Assembly: GCA_029259415.1 (NCBI GenBank)
Contig: JAPDIW010000005.1
Coordinates: 13,805 to 77,804, forward strand
Length of the DNA: 64,000 bases
Source of the DNA: Archaeoglobi archaeon
GTDB lineage: Archaea > Halobacteriota > Archaeoglobi > Archaeoglobales > Archaeoglobaceae
Direction of reading: 5' to 3'
Under the pieces are notes generated by a model that saw only the letters and a list, made by a program, of their open reading frames with translations, did no database searches and was not told where the DNA came from. The translations under genes and the position numbers were made by a program. Numbering within the stretch: the stretch's first letter is position 1; every line of letters begins with the position of its first letter. Below are positions 27,857 to 31,507 of this stretch, piece after piece.

Positions 27857-28714
27857 CTAGTTCAGCCCACCCTCTTTATAAAGAACACGGTCAAGAACGG
27901 AGAGGTGGGACCTGAGCATCCTCATCCTCTCGGCAACAATTCCAAAAGCCTCCCTATCACCCAGACTCATCTCCTGCCTGTTCAGACGCTTCGAAAACAG
28001 GTTCCTCAAAAACCTCAAAAGCAGAATGAACCAGTACCTCTTCCTGTCGTCGAAAACCAAGGCAGCCCTCTTGCTCCTGCTGTAGCCCTTCCGCCTGAAA
28101 GCTCCCCTCACGCCGCTCGTGTAGCGGCCTATAAGCACATAGGTCTCGTTAGCGGCCCTCTTCTTGTGCTGCCCCGCCCTGCCCCTCACACCCTTAACCT
28201 GCCTCACGAGCTGGTTGAGGTTCTCCTGGGCCTTCGAGGGCGGGATGTACCACCTCCTCCTTCTCACCGTCAATGCAACCATGTGGACCTCGTGCCTGGT
28301 GATGGGGATGAAGAGCACCAGAGTGTCTGTGCGGCCGTCCCCCTTCTTGCCAGGCGAGAGGTGGATGTAATCTCCTGGTTGCTTGACCCCAGCGGCAGAC
28401 AGCATCTGCAAAAACAGCACCTGCATCTTTGAGGAAACATCTTCAAAATCAAAAGAAAAGGGAGGTAAGAACCTTCCAGAACGCCAGACGGGCTCGAAGA
28501 TCTCCCTGTTCAGGTCGAGAAACTCCGCCGCCTCTTTTGCCGTTCCTTTAAATCCATAATAAGTCAATGCATCAAGGAGAGCCTTTGGGAACCTCACACC
28601 TTGAGACCTGATAAGCCCCACTACCTCGTCGAGCTTACAGGCTAACTCTGAGAGGGATGAGATTAGGTTGTCGAAAGATGGTCCTTGAGTTGTTGAGGCG
28701 TCAGCTGCTGTCAT
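27857..28714 (-). CDS. 285-aa basic hypothetical protein
   Basis: Coupled behind an RHH gene; R/K-rich C-terminal half. Confidence 0.7.
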   Translation of the reverse strand: MTAADASTTQGPSFDNLISSLSELACKLDEVVGLIRSQGVRFPKALLDALTYYGFKGTAKEAAEFLDLNREIFEPVWRSGRFLPPFSFDFEDVSSKMQVLFLQMLSAAGVKQPGDYIHLSPGKKGDGRTDTLVLFIPITRHEVHMVALTVRRRRWYIPPSKAQENLNQLVRQVKGVRGRAGQHKKRAANETYVLIGRYTSGVRGAFRRKGYSRSKRAALVFDDRKRYWFILLLRFLRNLFSKRLNRQEMSLGDREAFGIVAERMRMLRSHLSVLDRVLYKEGGLN

Positions 28715-28886
28715 GTGCTTTCAAAAGTCCCCTATTGGTAAGATCTTCACGAATCAAGGCCCTAATGTACTCACTGATCGACTTTGCCCCCAGTATTGGC
28801 GATTCATTCTCTATTAACTGTTCTATGAGATCCTTCCATTCTGCAGGTACGTCAGACCAAACTCGATCGAAACCTTTACGCACCAT
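28701..28886 (-). CDS. Ribbon-helix-helix (CopG-like) regulator
   Basis: SISEYIRALIREDL signature. Confidence 0.8.
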   Translation of the reverse strand: MVRKGFDRVWSDVPAEWKDLIEQLIENESPILGAKSISEYIRALIREDLTNRGLLKAHDSS

Positions 28887-28989: not shown

Positions 28990-29310
28990 ATGGTTGAAGA
29001 ATTGGTAAAAGGTTTAGCAAAATCAGGTGCAATTAAAATCCTCAGAGCACTAAAAGATGATGGCAAACGATTGACGGATCTTGTTAGAGAAGTTGATCTT
29101 GATAAATCGACGGTATGGCGTCGTTTAGAGGAGTTTGAGAAAAAGTTATTCTTGGTTTATGTAGAATACAATAGAGAACTAAAAGCTCCAATTTATAAAT
29201 TAACACCATTCGGCCTCAAAATCCTCCAAAAGCTCGAAGAAATAGAGCAGATCTACGAGGAGGAGATGCAGAAGGCTCCTCCGAAGGGGAGGGCTTTTGT
29301 TGAGGAATGA
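28990..29310 (+). CDS. Winged-helix transcriptional regulator
   Basis: IKILRAL, LDKSTVWRRLEE, YKLTPFG. Confidence 0.85.
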   Translation: MVEELVKGLAKSGAIKILRALKDDGKRLTDLVREVDLDKSTVWRRLEEFEKKLFLVYVEYNRELKAPIYKLTPFGLKILQKLEEIEQIYEEEMQKAPPKGRAFVEE

Positions 29311-29324
29311 AGGGGGTGTGAATT

Positions 29325-30409
29325 TTGTCTGAAATAAAAACGCCTACTTGGACCCCTGATCCTCATACCCTAGCAAAACATGAAATTTTAAAGAGATACC
29401 TGAAGGCATGGTTTCCAATATTGGGTAGTAGAAACCGTAGAGTAGTTTATCTTGATGGATTTGCGGGACCAGGGATATATGAGGATGGGAGTAAAGGATC
29501 TCCAGTTATTGCACTGGAGTGTTTAATTGAGCACCAATTAAGGACTAAACTTACCAAGACAGAATTCGTTTTTATTTTTATTGAAAGAGATAGAAAAAGA
29601 AAAGAGATTCTGGAGAGTGTGTTAGAGAAACAATTTCCAGAGTTACCTGACAACATAAAAATCCATGTAATTAATGCAGAGTTTGCACCTACCATGAATG
29701 AGATCTTGGATGATTTGGAGAAATATGGTGCAAAGTTGGCCCCAACTTTTGCATTTTTAGACCCATTTGGGTATGCTGGCCTTCCTTTAGAAACAATAAA
29801 AAGAATGATGAGCTATAGATCTTGCGAAGTTCTAATAAACTTCAACTACAAATCAATCAATCGATTTGTTCAGGTTTCTGATACTCGTGAAAAAGTATTT
29901 GATGAGTTGTTTGGAACAAAAGAATGGAGAAAAGTCCCAAAGAAAGAAGACTGTTCTTAATTGAGTTGTACAAATCTCAGTTAAAACAGTTTTGCGAATA
30001 CATCAGCTCGTTTGAGATGGTCGACAAGTTCAATCAAGTTCTCTATGACCTCGTTTTTGCAACCAAGCACATTAAAGGATTAGAGGTTATGAAAAATGCA
30101 ATGTGGATGGTGGGACCCCCAGGATCATACAGATTCTCTGACACAACTGACGTCCGACAAGTGCGTCTTATTGATTATTTTGGAAATGACTTCTGGGTTT
30201 CGGATGCAGCAGAGATGGTTTTTAAAGAATTTAAGGGGAAAACAGCTACAGTTGATGAGATTTATGAGTTTGTGATAGCCAAAACACCATTTATATTTAA
30301 AAAAGAAATATTAAAGAGACTTGAAATTCAGGGTAAAATCACAGATGTGAAGAACAGAAAGAGAAGACTGACGTACCCTGATGGCTGTGAAATTATTTTT
30401 TCAAAGTAG
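29325..30409 (+). pseudogene. tcmP: Three-Cys-motif partner protein TcmP-like (SAM-binding domain plus wHTH), split by one frameshift near 29937
   Basis: WTPDPHTLAKHEILKRYL, YLDGFAGPG, GSPVIAL, FLDPFG, EVLINF; second ORF with LYDLVFATKHIKGLEVMKNAMW. Confidence 0.8.
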
Positions 30410-31348
30410 GCAATTACACCTGATCCTCCTGTAATCCAGCCCCAAAGCCTCCCACATTCCGACTGTCTCCTTGCACAGCCCATAATCTCTGAACCCCTTC
30501 TCCTCCAACAGGTCGATGACAAACCTGTACATCTCCAGTCTGACATCAAACCTCGGCTTCAGCCCCCAGTTACTTTTCTCATCCAAATACTTAACCCAGC
30601 TCGTATCCCTGGCACACCTTATGGTGGTGCTCAACCCCCTCAGCGTGCCGAGCGTAAATCTGTCGGGCTCAAATCTCCTGAAGATCTCCTCCACCAGCTC
30701 TCTGTAGTGCTCCCTCCAGCCCTCAACAGGGACCATCGGGTCAATCCTGACCCTCACAGGATATCCATGTTCATGGAGCTTGCGAGCTGCCTCAATTCTT
30801 CTCAGAGGATTGGGGGCTCCCTTCTCCCACCGCTCTGCAACCGGGAAGGCGTTGATGCTGAAACTCACTATAACGTTCTCGGGTTCAATCTTCAGAAGGT
30901 TGTCCACCCTGTCAGACTTGGTGACGAGAAGCAGTTTGTAGTTGTCCTGTTCCTGGAACATCCTGGCGAGTTTCACCGAAGCTGGTGGATTCTGGTACTC
31001 CCCAATAAGGGAGTCCGAGAGCTCACCAGCATTTAGCAACTCCTCCCTCGAATTGTGCTGGAAAAGAGCCGTAAGGTGCAGCTCGATCTTCTTCCAGTCC
31101 TTGACAAAAGGCCTCTTACCCCTGTCAAGGAGCCTAAAGGTCCCCTGCAGGTAGCACCAAGCGCAGTTGAAGGGACAGCCGTTAGCCCACTTCAGCTCCA
31201 GAAAATGGGGGCAGACAACGTCAGTGGTCTTCTTGGGCACAGGAGTGCGGTCAAACAGCTTGATGATGGACCCATCTCCGACACGTACCACCCTCTTTTC
31301 CATTTCTCCAGTCAGCGATGTTACATAGTCAACAACGACTTTTGGCAT
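30401..31348 (-). CDS. Spore-photoproduct-lyase-like radical SAM protein
   Basis: GCPFNCAWCYLQ, GELSDSL, LVTKS, SFSINA, RIEAARKL, RVRIDPMV; start placed at MPKVV. Confidence 0.85.
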   Translation of the reverse strand: MPKVVVDYVTSLTGEMEKRVVRVGDGSIIKLFDRTPVPKKTTDVVCPHFLELKWANGCPFNCAWCYLQGTFRLLDRGKRPFVKDWKKIELHLTALFQHNSREELLNAGELSDSLIGEYQNPPASVKLARMFQEQDNYKLLLVTKSDRVDNLLKIEPENVIVSFSINAFPVAERWEKGAPNPLRRIEAARKLHEHGYPVRVRIDPMVPVEGWREHYRELVEEIFRRFEPDRFTLGTLRGLSTTIRCARDTSWVKYLDEKSNWGLKPRFDVRLEMYRFVIDLLEEKGFRDYGLCKETVGMWEALGLDYRRIRCNCLL

Positions 31349-31507
31349 CTCCTCTACTATAAACCCATCCCACAAATTTAACTTTTTTTTGAATTGAACG
31401 CCTGGGAGATATCATCTTCATCATACCTTAATTTTCATCCTATATTAATTTTTCTCAACCCGCTTACAATGTTGATGGCTGTCATGCACGCAAAATAAAT
31501 TTGAGAC

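What the first reader, a model, noticed from the sequence alone, without database searches (positions are those of the whole stretch)
29325..31348. TcmP-like gene converging on an SPL-like radical SAM gene: candidate DNA modification/repair module
Seen: the two genes overlap at their 3' ends (30401-30409); TcmP has a SAM-binding-type DGFAGPG motif; the partner has a canonical CxxxCxxC. Known: TcmP proteins usually sit beside DUF5131 (phage Gp37/Gp68) three-Cys proteins and their chemistry is unresolved. Inference: an SPL-like enzyme replaces the usual partner, and the pair may modify or repair element DNA in a non-sporulating thermophile.
Basis: partly seen in the sequence, partly recalled or inferred. 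Interest (0 to 1): 0.65.

Follow-up and report, generated by a model that had tools for sequence, protein, structure and literature searches.

The report
Broken TcmP plus SPL-like radical-SAM module
Two tail-to-tail genes in an archaeal mobile element are a local, partly broken copy of a widespread, never-tested enzyme pair (a methyltransferase-like protein plus a radical-SAM enzyme shaped like a DNA-repair lyase) that probably puts an unknown chemical mark on DNA.

Summary
A TcmP gene (29325-30409, +) and an SPL-family radical-SAM gene (30401-31375, -) converge and overlap by 9 bp, and both motifs are present.

The pairing is not chance. TcmP was adjacent in 62 of 80 genomes carrying this radical-SAM family, and 15 of those are single-ORF TcmP-SPL fusions. 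From the TcmP side, 73 of 80 loci had a radical-SAM partner: this SPL type, a second SPL type, DUF5131 or a small radical-SAM protein. The other 7 loci stop at contig ends.

The enzyme is not a true spore photoproduct lyase. It scores 76 bits against a cut-off of 400, the catalytic Cys is replaced by an invariant Glu, and four extra invariant Cys are present.

The radical-SAM partner is conserved (median 58% identity). TcmP is hypervariable (24%) and is swapped independently of it. Neighbours are often restriction-modification genes.

Here tcmP is a low-GC cassette inactivated by a 16-bp deletion. A second contig of the same assembly joins a different tcmP, also frameshifted, to the same SPL 3' end.

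The most likely function is a two-part DNA-modifying module of the restriction/defence kind, decaying in this genome. The chemistry is unknown.

The parts
28990..29310 (+). Small winged-helix (HxlR/HTH_45/ArsR-like) DNA-binding gene just upstream of tcmP. It is a local neighbour, not a conserved part of the module.
   Evidence: Pfam HTH_45, HxlR, HTH_IclR and HVO_A0261_N hits. A homologue sits in the same position only in the closest relatives L005/L006. GC is 39%. Its 3' end (29201-29310) is the left boundary shared with the alternative cassette on contig C98.
29325..29960 (+). tcmP, 5' fragment (211 codons). It holds the SAM-methyltransferase-fold core with motif I DGFAGPG (residues 44-50), GSP (58-60) and motif IV-like DPFG (146-149).
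   Evidence: TIGR04474 at 180 bits, profile 1-198. PADLOC PDC-M30A positions 8-216 of 381. These motifs are kept in 86-98% of 59 distinct TcmPs. The AF2 model of the intact relative has a class-I methyltransferase fold.
29934..29935 (+). Site of a 16-bp deletion (TAAGGAGTATTGATAA is present in L005/L006) that shifts the tcmP reading frame.
   Evidence: DNA alignment A3. A global alignment shows a 16-nt gap and a 3-nt gap, with the rest 96.9% identical.
29924..30409 (+). tcmP, 3' fragment in another frame (161 codons). It holds the end of the TcmP core plus the C-terminal winged-helix domain.
   Evidence: TIGR04474 profile 202-261 at 40 bits. PDC-M30A positions 223-380. Weak Pfam GMT-wHTH hit, 19 bits against cut-off 27. 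H-E-H-H-E-E topology in the AF2 model, residues 296-365.
30401..31375 (-). SPL-family radical-SAM gene ('SPL_A'), body intact. It carries C67x3C71x2C74 plus four further invariant Cys (C55, C301, C320, C322).
   Evidence: PF20903 at 65 bits. AF2 pLDDT 92.7; best PDB match is spore photoproduct lyase 4FHF, TM 0.64, 24% identity. Invariant columns come from alignment A1. There are 108 synonymous against 32 non-synonymous codon differences vs L005.
31383..31390 (-). A8 run (A7 in L005/L006). It puts the ancestral ATG (31413-31415) out of frame with the gene body. In-frame TTG (31373-31375) and an ATG at codon 10 remain.
   Evidence: DNA alignment A5. Many family members start at the position of codon 10 (A1). 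This could be a sequencing error; reads could not be checked.

Best explanation
The locus is a copy of a conserved, mobile two-component module.

The parts. TcmP is a SAM-methyltransferase-fold protein with a C-terminal winged helix. It works together with a radical-SAM enzyme of the spore-photoproduct-lyase fold. That enzyme has the canonical CxxxCxxC cluster and probably a second Fe-S cluster on four extra invariant cysteines.

The module is one variant of the catalogued but untested TcmP + DUF5131 pair (PADLOC candidates PDC-M30 and PDC-M41). Here the DUF5131 partner is replaced by a related SPL-type enzyme.

Inferred mechanism. The fast-evolving, exchangeable TcmP binds SAM and selects, presents and perhaps methylates a nucleic-acid base, most likely in DNA. 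The strongly conserved radical-SAM partner then carries out radical chemistry on that base. The result would be a DNA modification used in the restriction/anti-restriction or defence economy of mobile elements.

State in this genome. The module is cargo of an integrated Archaeoglobi element and is decaying. The tcmP is a recently acquired low-GC cassette that has been inactivated by a 16-bp deletion. The radical-SAM gene is intact in its body and has been under purifying selection, but it has lost register with its ancestral start codon.

Shown: the anatomy, the lesions, the recurrence, the fusions, the partner swapping, the folds, and that this is not a true SP lyase. Inferred: DNA as substrate, the division of labour between the two proteins, and the defence or modification role.
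For: Recurrence. All 6 metagenome loci holding near relatives have intact TcmP converging on SPL. Of 80 genome loci found with the SPL family, 62 have TcmP adjacent. Fifteen of those are single-ORF TcmP(N)-SPL(C) fusions of 583-730 aa. P0074 is a further fusion. Starting from TcmP, 73 of 80 loci have a radical-SAM partner within 1.5 kb, and the other 7 stop at a contig end.

Folds. TcmP has a class-I methyltransferase fold plus a winged helix, pLDDT 87. Motif I and the DP motif are kept in 86-98% of 59 TcmPs despite 24% median identity. The radical-SAM partner has the SPL fold, TM 0.64.

Conserved enzyme, variable partner. Median pairwise identity is 58.5% for SPL and 23.8% for TcmP, with Spearman rho 0.07. 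Between L005 and L008, SPL is 86% identical and TcmP 20%.

Local mosaic. tcmP has 36.5% GC (GC3 30-40%), while SPL has 52.4% (GC3 67%), and the step falls exactly at the stop codons. Between the window and L005, tcmP is 96.9% identical while its flanks are 74-85%. Contig C98 carries a different tcmP joined to the same SPL 3' end.

Context elsewhere. The most frequent flanking families are Eco57I, N6_Mtase, MmeI_Mtase, TaqI_C and ResIII. TcmP-less copies follow a Res helicase-nuclease or an N6-MTase plus HsdS. A Dehalococcoidales hot spot that holds the pair in some genomes holds an OLD-family nuclease in another. TcmP matches the PADLOC defence candidates PDC-M30A and PDC-M41A.

Precedent. An SPL-like radical-SAM enzyme that modifies DNA bases is phage M6 gp53 (PMC8989533).
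Against: No experiment exists for any member, and the literature search found nothing on TcmP, DUF5131 or PDC-M30 function.

The substrate could be RNA. The fold neighbours of TcmP include the tRNA/rRNA methyltransferases Trm1 and TrmM.

The immediate window neighbours have no defence or restriction-modification hits.

The geometry of the second Fe-S cluster could not be checked because no model coordinates were available.

SPL survives without TcmP in about ten loci, so the enzyme may also act alone or with other partners.
Confidence: 0.6

Rival explanations
1. It is a genuine DNA-repair enzyme: a spore-photoproduct lyase or another radical-SAM lesion-reversal enzyme. TcmP would act as a damage-recognition helper that protects element or host DNA in a thermophile.
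For: The best structural match is SP lyase, TM 0.61-0.64. The SPL Pfam family hit is above its cut-off. The Tyr98 equivalent (Y75) is conserved. Some sources label homologues 'spore photoproduct lyase'.
Against: The protein scores 76 bits on TIGR04070 (cut-off 400) and 35 bits on TIGR03886 (cut-off 437). The hydrogen-donor Cys140 aligns with an invariant Glu118, and Tyr96 aligns with Trp73. Four extra invariant Cys are absent from SPL. The gene is a rare accessory gene: 6 of 96 Archaeoglobi and 5 of 121 Dehalococcoidales. A repair enzyme would not need a hypervariable, swappable partner, nor restriction-modification neighbours.
Confidence: 0.07
2. It is a defence effector rather than a modification writer. 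On infection the pair would damage invader nucleic acid or make an antiviral nucleotide, as viperin-like radical-SAM enzymes do. TcmP would act as the sensor or targeting part.
For: TcmP matches the PADLOC defence candidates PDC-M30A and PDC-M41A. The pair occupies variable hot spots that elsewhere hold an OLD-family nuclease. It lies next to KAP NTPase, HicAB and AbiEii genes. Two independent inactivations of tcmP in one assembly would fit a costly or toxic gene.
Against: PDC systems are untested candidates. The SPL fold is a DNA-duplex-binding, base-flipping enzyme, not a nucleotide-pool enzyme. The frequent operon position beside or behind methyltransferase and specificity genes looks more like a modification arm.
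Confidence: 0.17
3. It is an RNA (tRNA or rRNA) modification enzyme pair carried by mobile elements.
For: The fold neighbours of TcmP include Trm1, TrmM, TrmR and rRNA methylases. Many radical-SAM nucleic-acid enzymes, such as RlmN and MiaB, act on RNA; RlmN is among the weaker fold hits.
Against: The distribution is accessory, patchy and horizontally shuffled. The context is restriction-modification. A hypervariable partner is not expected for conserved RNA targets. The closest structural relative of the radical-SAM part binds DNA.
Confidence: 0.1
4. The two genes are chance neighbours in a cargo region and have no functional link.
For: Their base composition differs sharply (36.5% vs 52.4% GC). 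They have different evolutionary histories. The tcmP is broken.
Against: Adjacency holds in 62 of 80 loci from one side and 73 of 80 from the other. There are 15 natural fusions, across bacteria and archaea.
Confidence: 0.01

Closest known systems
TcmP + DUF5131 ('phage Gp37/Gp68', PF07505) gene pair. This is the pairing behind NCBIfam TIGR04474 and the PADLOC candidate systems PDC-M30 and PDC-M41, which are untested.
   Same: The TcmP component is the same family. The intact relative P0121 scores 222 bits on PDC-M30A over positions 8-380 of 381. The window fragments hit TIGR04474. Coupling to a radical-SAM-superfamily partner is obligate. TcmPs 38-65% identical to this one do pair with DUF5131, which matches PDC-M30B and PDC-M41B. 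DUF5131 and the SPL type are linked by profile comparison: 81% probability directly, and 98% and 99.6% through the small radical-SAM class. Both lie in RadicalSAM.org Megacluster-5.
   Different: The partner here is a 324-337-aa SPL-family protein with the canonical CxxxCxxC and four more invariant Cys. It is not the roughly 250-aa DUF5131. It matches no PADLOC model, so PADLOC would not call this a system.
Spore photoproduct lyase SplB (TIGR04070; PDB 4FHC-4FHG, Geobacillus thermodenitrificans)
   Same: The fold matches (TM 0.61-0.64 over about 263 columns). The position of the CxxxCxxC cluster is the same. The Tyr98 equivalent is kept.
   Different: Identity is 22-24%. The score is 76 bits against a 400-bit cut-off. 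Cys140 is replaced by an invariant Glu and Tyr96 by Trp. There are extra Cys residues. The protein is paired with or fused to a methyltransferase-like protein. It is an accessory gene of anaerobes and archaea that make no spores.
Phage M6 gp53, an SPL-like radical-SAM isomerase in thymidine hypermodification (PMC8989533)
   Same: It is an SPL-fold radical-SAM enzyme that acts on a base already in DNA as part of a multi-enzyme modification pathway. This is a resemblance in how it might work.
   Different: No sequence relationship was tested or found here; the family has no match in 50,697 phage records. The M6 partners (5-hmdU kinase, aGPT-PPlase, PLP decarboxylase) are absent, and TcmP is the partner instead.
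Exchangeable specificity subunits of restriction-modification systems (HsdS of Type I; target-recognition domains of Type IIG/MmeI enzymes)
   Same: A conserved catalytic part is combined with a hypervariable part that is swapped by recombination. The pair often lies next to such systems.
   Different: TcmP is not homologous to HsdS. It keeps a SAM-binding pocket, so it is probably itself an enzyme. No target specificity has been shown.

Membership tests
Spore photoproduct lyase (TIGR04070 equivalog) | Whole-protein HMM score above the curated cut-off (400 bits) | tested here: not met
   76 bits, covering only residues 61-236. TIGR03886 gives 34.6 bits against a cut-off of 437.55.
Spore photoproduct lyase (TIGR04070 equivalog) | Catalytic hydrogen-donor cysteine (Cys140 in G. 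thermodenitrificans, Cys141 in B. subtilis) and the Tyr96/Tyr98 relay | tested here: not met
   In the profile alignment to 4FHG, Cys140 (Ser in that mutant) aligns with Glu118, which is invariant in 30 sequences. Tyr96 aligns with the invariant Trp73. Only Tyr98 is kept, as Tyr75.
Spore photoproduct lyase (TIGR04070 equivalog) | SPL fold with an N-terminal CxxxCxxC radical-SAM cluster | tested here: met
   Foldseek places 4FHF first with E 2e-14 and TM 0.64/0.61. C67x3C71x2C74 is invariant. Pfam PF20903 gives 65 bits against cut-off 27.
Spore photoproduct lyase (TIGR04070 equivalog) | Repairs the spore photoproduct in DNA | not testable with these tools
   This needs an enzyme assay.
TcmP (NCBIfam TIGR04474) | HMM score above the cut-off (53 bits) | tested here: met
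   The N fragment scores 180 bits. The C fragment adds 40 bits on profile positions 202-261.
TcmP (NCBIfam TIGR04474) | Intact open reading frame | tested here: not met
   A 16-bp deletion relative to L005/L006 splits the gene into two frames.
TcmP (NCBIfam TIGR04474) | Sits beside a three-Cys-motif (DUF5131, PF07505) protein | tested here: not met
   The partner has no PF07505 hit. It is an SPL-family protein, related to DUF5131 only at profile level.
PADLOC candidate system PDC-M30 | Both components A and B detected | tested here: not met
   Component A is met. Component B is not: the radical-SAM protein matches no PADLOC model at E<=0.01, whereas a DUF5131 partner from L136 matches PDC-M30B at 293 bits.
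Radical SAM superfamily | CxxxCxxC motif and a (partial) TIM-barrel radical-SAM core | tested here: met
   The motif is present and invariant. PF04055 gives 28.1 bits, just under its cut-off of 29.5. All fold matches are radical-SAM enzymes.
Class I SAM-dependent methyltransferase (TcmP part) | Rossmann-like fold with a glycine-rich motif I and an acidic or DPxx motif IV | tested here: met
   AF2 model pLDDT 87. There are 107 PDB matches at E<=0.001, the top ones SAM methyltransferases. DxFAGxG and DP are kept in 86-98% of 59 TcmPs. Methyl-transfer activity itself was not tested.

The most novel reading that the evidence does not exclude
TcmP plus its radical-SAM partner would be a modular radical-SAM DNA-modification system. 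The conserved SPL-type enzyme, with a second Fe-S cluster, would write a base modification not yet described. Exchangeable TcmP cassettes would set the target site, as specificity subunits do in restriction-modification systems.

This assembly would then capture the exchange in the act. Two different tcmP cassettes are joined to the same radical-SAM gene, and both have been silenced by independent lesions. That would suggest a changed specificity is costly to the host or element.
Probability: 0.3. Interest if true: 0.85.

Novelty: new variant of a known kind. Interest (0 to 1): 0.55.

Why it matters
Only two kinds of radical-SAM enzyme are known to act on DNA: SP lyase in repair, and phage M6 gp53 in hypermodification. 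A widespread, horizontally mobile pair of a methyltransferase-fold protein and an SPL-fold radical-SAM enzyme would therefore point to a new class of DNA chemistry in the conflict between hosts and mobile elements. The pair is often fused and often sits inside restriction-modification operons.

The survey here makes several things testable:
- Natural fusions give ready-made single-chain constructs.
- The conserved-enzyme, variable-partner pattern predicts that swapping TcmP changes the target.
- Databases catalogue only the DUF5131 variant, so the SPL-type, 'SPL_B' and small radical-SAM variants go undetected.

This particular locus is a poor experimental source because it is degraded. It does document cassette exchange and decay of the module.

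Tried and rejected
- A viral-contig scan with the SPL protein found no relative.
- The phage GenBank collection gave no match.
- The plasmid collection gave only true splB genes at 25-31% identity.
- A PDB sequence search with the TcmP profile gave nothing meaningful.
- A Foldseek search of the SPL model against viral structures returned only generic radical-SAM proteins.
- Literature searches for TcmP, DUF5131, PF07505, TIGR04474, PDC-M30, PDC-M41 and GMT-wHTH found only listings and no functional study.
- My first iterative TcmP HMM was contaminated by TcmP-SPL fusion proteins and matched every SPL. I rebuilt it from the TcmP region only.
- Eight loci showed mtnA and mtnP (MTA / 5'-deoxyadenosine salvage) flanking the pair. 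I considered a functional link to by-product disposal and rejected it. In Dehalococcoidales lacking the pair, the same mtnA|mtnP gap varies from 35 nt to 1.9 kb. It holds unrelated cargo, including an OLD-family nuclease. The pair is present in only 5 of 121 genomes of that order. The gap is a variable hot spot.
- The winged-helix gene upstream of tcmP is not a conserved module member.
- The window neighbours gave no PADLOC or Pfam hints.
Full report
**What is in the window**

Between 28.9 and 31.5 kb there are three genes.
- A small winged-helix gene lies at 28990-29310 (+). It gives HxlR, HTH_45 and ArsR-type hits.
- A tcmP gene is split into two overlapping frames, 29325-29960 and 29924-30409 (+).
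- A convergent radical-SAM gene lies at 30401-31375 (-).

The two tcmP pieces hit NCBIfam TIGR04474 at 180 bits (profile 1-198) and 40 bits (profile 202-261). They cover positions 8-216 and 223-380 of the 381-position PADLOC model PDC-M30A. DGFAGPG is present. The partner has GC67PFNC71AWC74Y and matches Pfam SPL (65 bits).

**The local copy is damaged**

A 97%-identical intact tcmP exists on two metagenome contigs (L005, L006; 367 aa). Aligned to them, the window lacks 16 bp (TAAGGAGTATTGATAA) between 29934 and 29935. This is a true frameshifting deletion, not a homopolymer slip.

The radical-SAM gene body is open. However, an A8 run (31383-31390) replaces the A7 of L005/L006. This puts the ancestral ATG (31413-31415) out of frame. 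An in-frame TTG and an ATG at codon 10 remain, and many family members start at codon 10. The enzyme may therefore still be made, and the extra A could be a sequencing error.

Between the window and L005, the radical-SAM gene shows 108 synonymous against 32 non-synonymous codon differences. It has been under purifying selection.

**The pairing is real and general**

Starting from the radical-SAM protein:
- The protein search returned 1503 hits at E<=0.001; the listed top ones are 51-96% identical and come from archaea and many bacterial phyla.
- A scan of one genome per species found 202 relatives, and 80 loci were fetched.
- HMM searches of all ORFs found TcmP next to the SPL-type gene in 62 of these 80 loci.
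- In 15 of those it is a single ORF with TcmP at the N-terminus and the SPL-type domain at the C-terminus.
- The arrangement varies: upstream co-directional, downstream co-directional, or convergent as here.
- Of the 18 loci without TcmP, several end at a contig edge and one (L009) keeps only a 40-codon 3' remnant.
- In about ten loci with room on both sides, the SPL-type gene directly follows other genes. These include a Type III-like Res helicase-endonuclease (L015, L050), an N6-methyltransferase plus HsdS (L068), a Schlafen/AlbA_2 protein (L062), a DUF1016/YhcG nuclease (L078) and LexA (L065).

Starting from TcmP (80 metagenome loci, 38-65% identical):
- 73 have a radical-SAM-type partner within 1.5 kb.
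- The other 7 have TcmP within 15-279 nt of a contig end.
- Four main partner classes appear: this SPL type in 17 loci, a second SPL-like paralogue 'SPL_B' in about 26 (often in tandem with the first), DUF5131 in about 23, and an unnamed radical-SAM protein of about 255 aa in 15-20; about 8 loci have only weak SPL-like hits.
- Profile comparison links these classes: SPL type to small radical-SAM at 98%, DUF5131 to small radical-SAM at 99.6%, and SPL type to DUF5131 at 81%.
- This agrees with RadicalSAM.org, which places MJ0683-like, DUF5131 and SPL in one megacluster (PMC9477430).

**What the two proteins are**

*The radical-SAM protein.*
- The AF2 model (pLDDT 92.7) matches spore photoproduct lyase best: 4FHF, TM 0.64/0.61, 24% identity.
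- It is not an SP lyase. It scores 76 bits on TIGR04070 against a 400-bit cut-off.
- In the profile alignment to the crystal sequence, the hydrogen-donor Cys140 aligns with Glu118, which is invariant across the family. Tyr96 aligns with the invariant Trp73. Only Tyr98 is kept.
- The family has four further invariant cysteines: C55 in CPHF, C301 in CKE, and C320 and C322 in CNC. I infer a second Fe-S cluster from these, but I could not measure the geometry.

*TcmP.*
- The model of the intact relative (pLDDT 87) has a class-I SAM-methyltransferase fold followed by a winged helix. It has 107 PDB matches at E<=0.001, the top ones SAM methyltransferases (EgtD, HNMT, Trm1, TrmM, CamA and others).
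- Across 59 distinct TcmPs that share only about 24% identity, DxFAGxG, GSP and a DP motif are kept in 86-98%.
- TcmP is therefore probably a SAM-binding enzyme and not only an adaptor.

**Conserved enzyme, variable partner**

Over 64 loci (2016 pairs), the SPL-type domain has a median identity of 58.5% (minimum 48%). TcmP has a median of 23.8% (minimum 14%). The two are uncorrelated, with Spearman rho 0.07. Two Archaeoglobi loci show this directly: between L005 and L008, SPL is 86% identical while TcmP is 20%.

The window shows the same mosaic.
- tcmP has 36.5% GC (GC3 30-40%).
- The radical-SAM gene has 52.4% GC (GC3 67%), like the element's core at 54%.
- The step falls exactly at the convergent stop codons.
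- Against L005, tcmP is 96.9% identical in DNA. The winged-helix gene is 74%, the radical-SAM gene 83.6%, and the outer flanking genes 78-85%.

tcmP has therefore been exchanged recently and on its own.

**A second version of the locus in the same assembly**

The window's genome (1.94 Mb, 104 contigs) has one SPL-type gene but a second TcmP hit on the 1.9-kb contig C98.
- The first 127 nt of that contig are identical to window 30529-30403, the 3' end of the radical-SAM gene.
- Nucleotides 1706-1815 are 96% identical to the 3' end of the winged-helix gene.
- Between these lie a 94-codon gene and a tcmP of a different subtype. This tcmP is 84% and 77% identical to the TcmP of L008 and resembles PDC-M41A.
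- It is also broken, by a 1-nt deletion outside any homopolymer.

One sample therefore contains two alternative tcmP cassettes joined to the same radical-SAM 3' end, and both are inactivated independently.

Among the 96 Archaeoglobi species genomes searched, 6 carry the SPL-type gene. In those, TcmP is intact in 3, frameshifted here, reduced to a remnant in one, and cut off by a contig end in one.

**Context and likely role**

Of 132 ORFs directly flanking the module in the 80 genome loci, the most frequent families are Eco57I (10), N6_Mtase (10), MmeI_Mtase (6), TaqI_C (5) and ResIII (4). mtnA and mtnP were also frequent, at 8 each. I tested a functional link to them and rejected it.
- In Dehalococcoidales without the module, the mtnA|mtnP gap ranges from 35 nt to 1.9 kb.
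- It holds unrelated cargo, including an OLD-family ATPase-nuclease.
- The module occurs in only 5 of 121 genomes of that order.

The gap is a variable hot spot, which again fits mobile or defence cargo.

In the window itself, the neighbours are ORFans with no defence hits. Notes from earlier agents place the locus inside an integrated Archaeoglobi element. The organism names of the closest homologues agree with that assignment.

Taken together, the best-supported reading is a two-part nucleic-acid-modifying module that most likely acts on DNA. The exchangeable TcmP would select and present, and perhaps methylate, the target base. The conserved SPL-fold enzyme would perform the radical step. 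Phage M6 gp53 is a precedent for an SPL-like radical-SAM enzyme that modifies DNA bases (PMC8989533). The substrate, the chemistry and the biological role are all inferred, and no member has been tested.

**Comparison with what is known, and novelty**

The closest known entity is the TcmP + DUF5131 pair, which underlies TIGR04474 and the untested PADLOC candidates PDC-M30 and PDC-M41. A DUF5131 partner matches PDC-M30B and PDC-M41B. The SPL type, SPL_B and the small radical-SAM partners match no PADLOC model.

This locus is therefore a new variant of a known but uncharacterised kind. Earlier agents of this scan reached similar conclusions at other loci. I read those notes only after my own survey, and they agree with it. 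They are not independent evidence.

What this window adds is threefold:
- a sharp compositional and identity mosaic showing exchange of tcmP alone;
- two alternative cassettes at one radical-SAM gene within a single assembly;
- repeated decay of tcmP while the radical-SAM gene persists.

**Verdict**

The module as a class deserves experimental work. This copy is mainly of evolutionary interest.

Noticed in passing
Own genome contig C98 = L088:1-1899 (overlaps window 30403-30529 and 29201-29310): This is an alternative version of the locus. A different tcmP subtype (L008/PDC-M41A-like) plus a 94-codon gene lie between the same SPL 3' end (127 nt, 100% identical) and the 3' end of the winged-helix gene (96% identical). 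This tcmP is also frameshifted, by a 1-nt deletion. It could reflect two strains or two element copies; this is unresolved.
   Followed up: partly
window 31383-31415 (-): An A8 run replaces the A7 of the closest relatives. It disconnects the ancestral ATG of the radical-SAM gene from its body. It could be a real +1 lesion, a site of transcriptional slippage, or a sequencing error.
   Followed up: partly
L031, L051, L080, L085 (Bathyarchaeia); L093-L095, L098, L104, L105, L107, L115, L116: Two SPL-like paralogues lie in tandem ('SPL_A', and 'SPL_B' scoring about 280 bits on the SPL_A profile), followed by a convergent TcmP. This recurrent three-gene form of the module is not in any catalogue.
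   Followed up: partly
L015:2358-5948, L050:2356-5945, L068:1520-5942: SPL_A without TcmP is translationally coupled to an 835-aa ResIII helicase with an endonuclease domain. In L068 it follows an HSDR_N+N6-methyltransferase gene and an HsdS gene, with AbiEii downstream. The radical-SAM enzyme may work with other methyltransferase or restriction partners.
   Followed up: partly
L011, L013, L014, L018, L030, L043, L049, L058, L070; L177-L186: In Dehalococcoidales the gap between mtnA and mtnP is a variable hot spot of 35 nt to 1.9 kb. It holds the TcmP-SPL pair or fusion in some genomes, an OLD-family ATPase-nuclease in one (L181), and unknown ORFs of 226-253 aa in others.
   Followed up: yes
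L101:3203-3973, L103:3223-3978, L106:3193-3960, L145:5120-5902: A class of radical-SAM proteins of about 255 aa (only the generic PF04055 hit, no PADLOC model) is a frequent TcmP partner. By profile comparison it bridges DUF5131 and the SPL type.
   Followed up: partly
window 28701-28886 (-): A 61-codon ORF with a ribbon-helix-helix-like sequence (…SISEYIRALIREDL…) overlaps the start of the 285-codon ORFan at 27857-28714. There is no database hit.
   Followed up: no
L001-L004 (hydrothermal metagenome contigs): In a second element family, the intact convergent TcmP/SPL pair lies next to a DUF6615 gene, a 718-aa KAP-family NTPase and a HicAB pair. This looks like a defence-island context.
   Followed up: no
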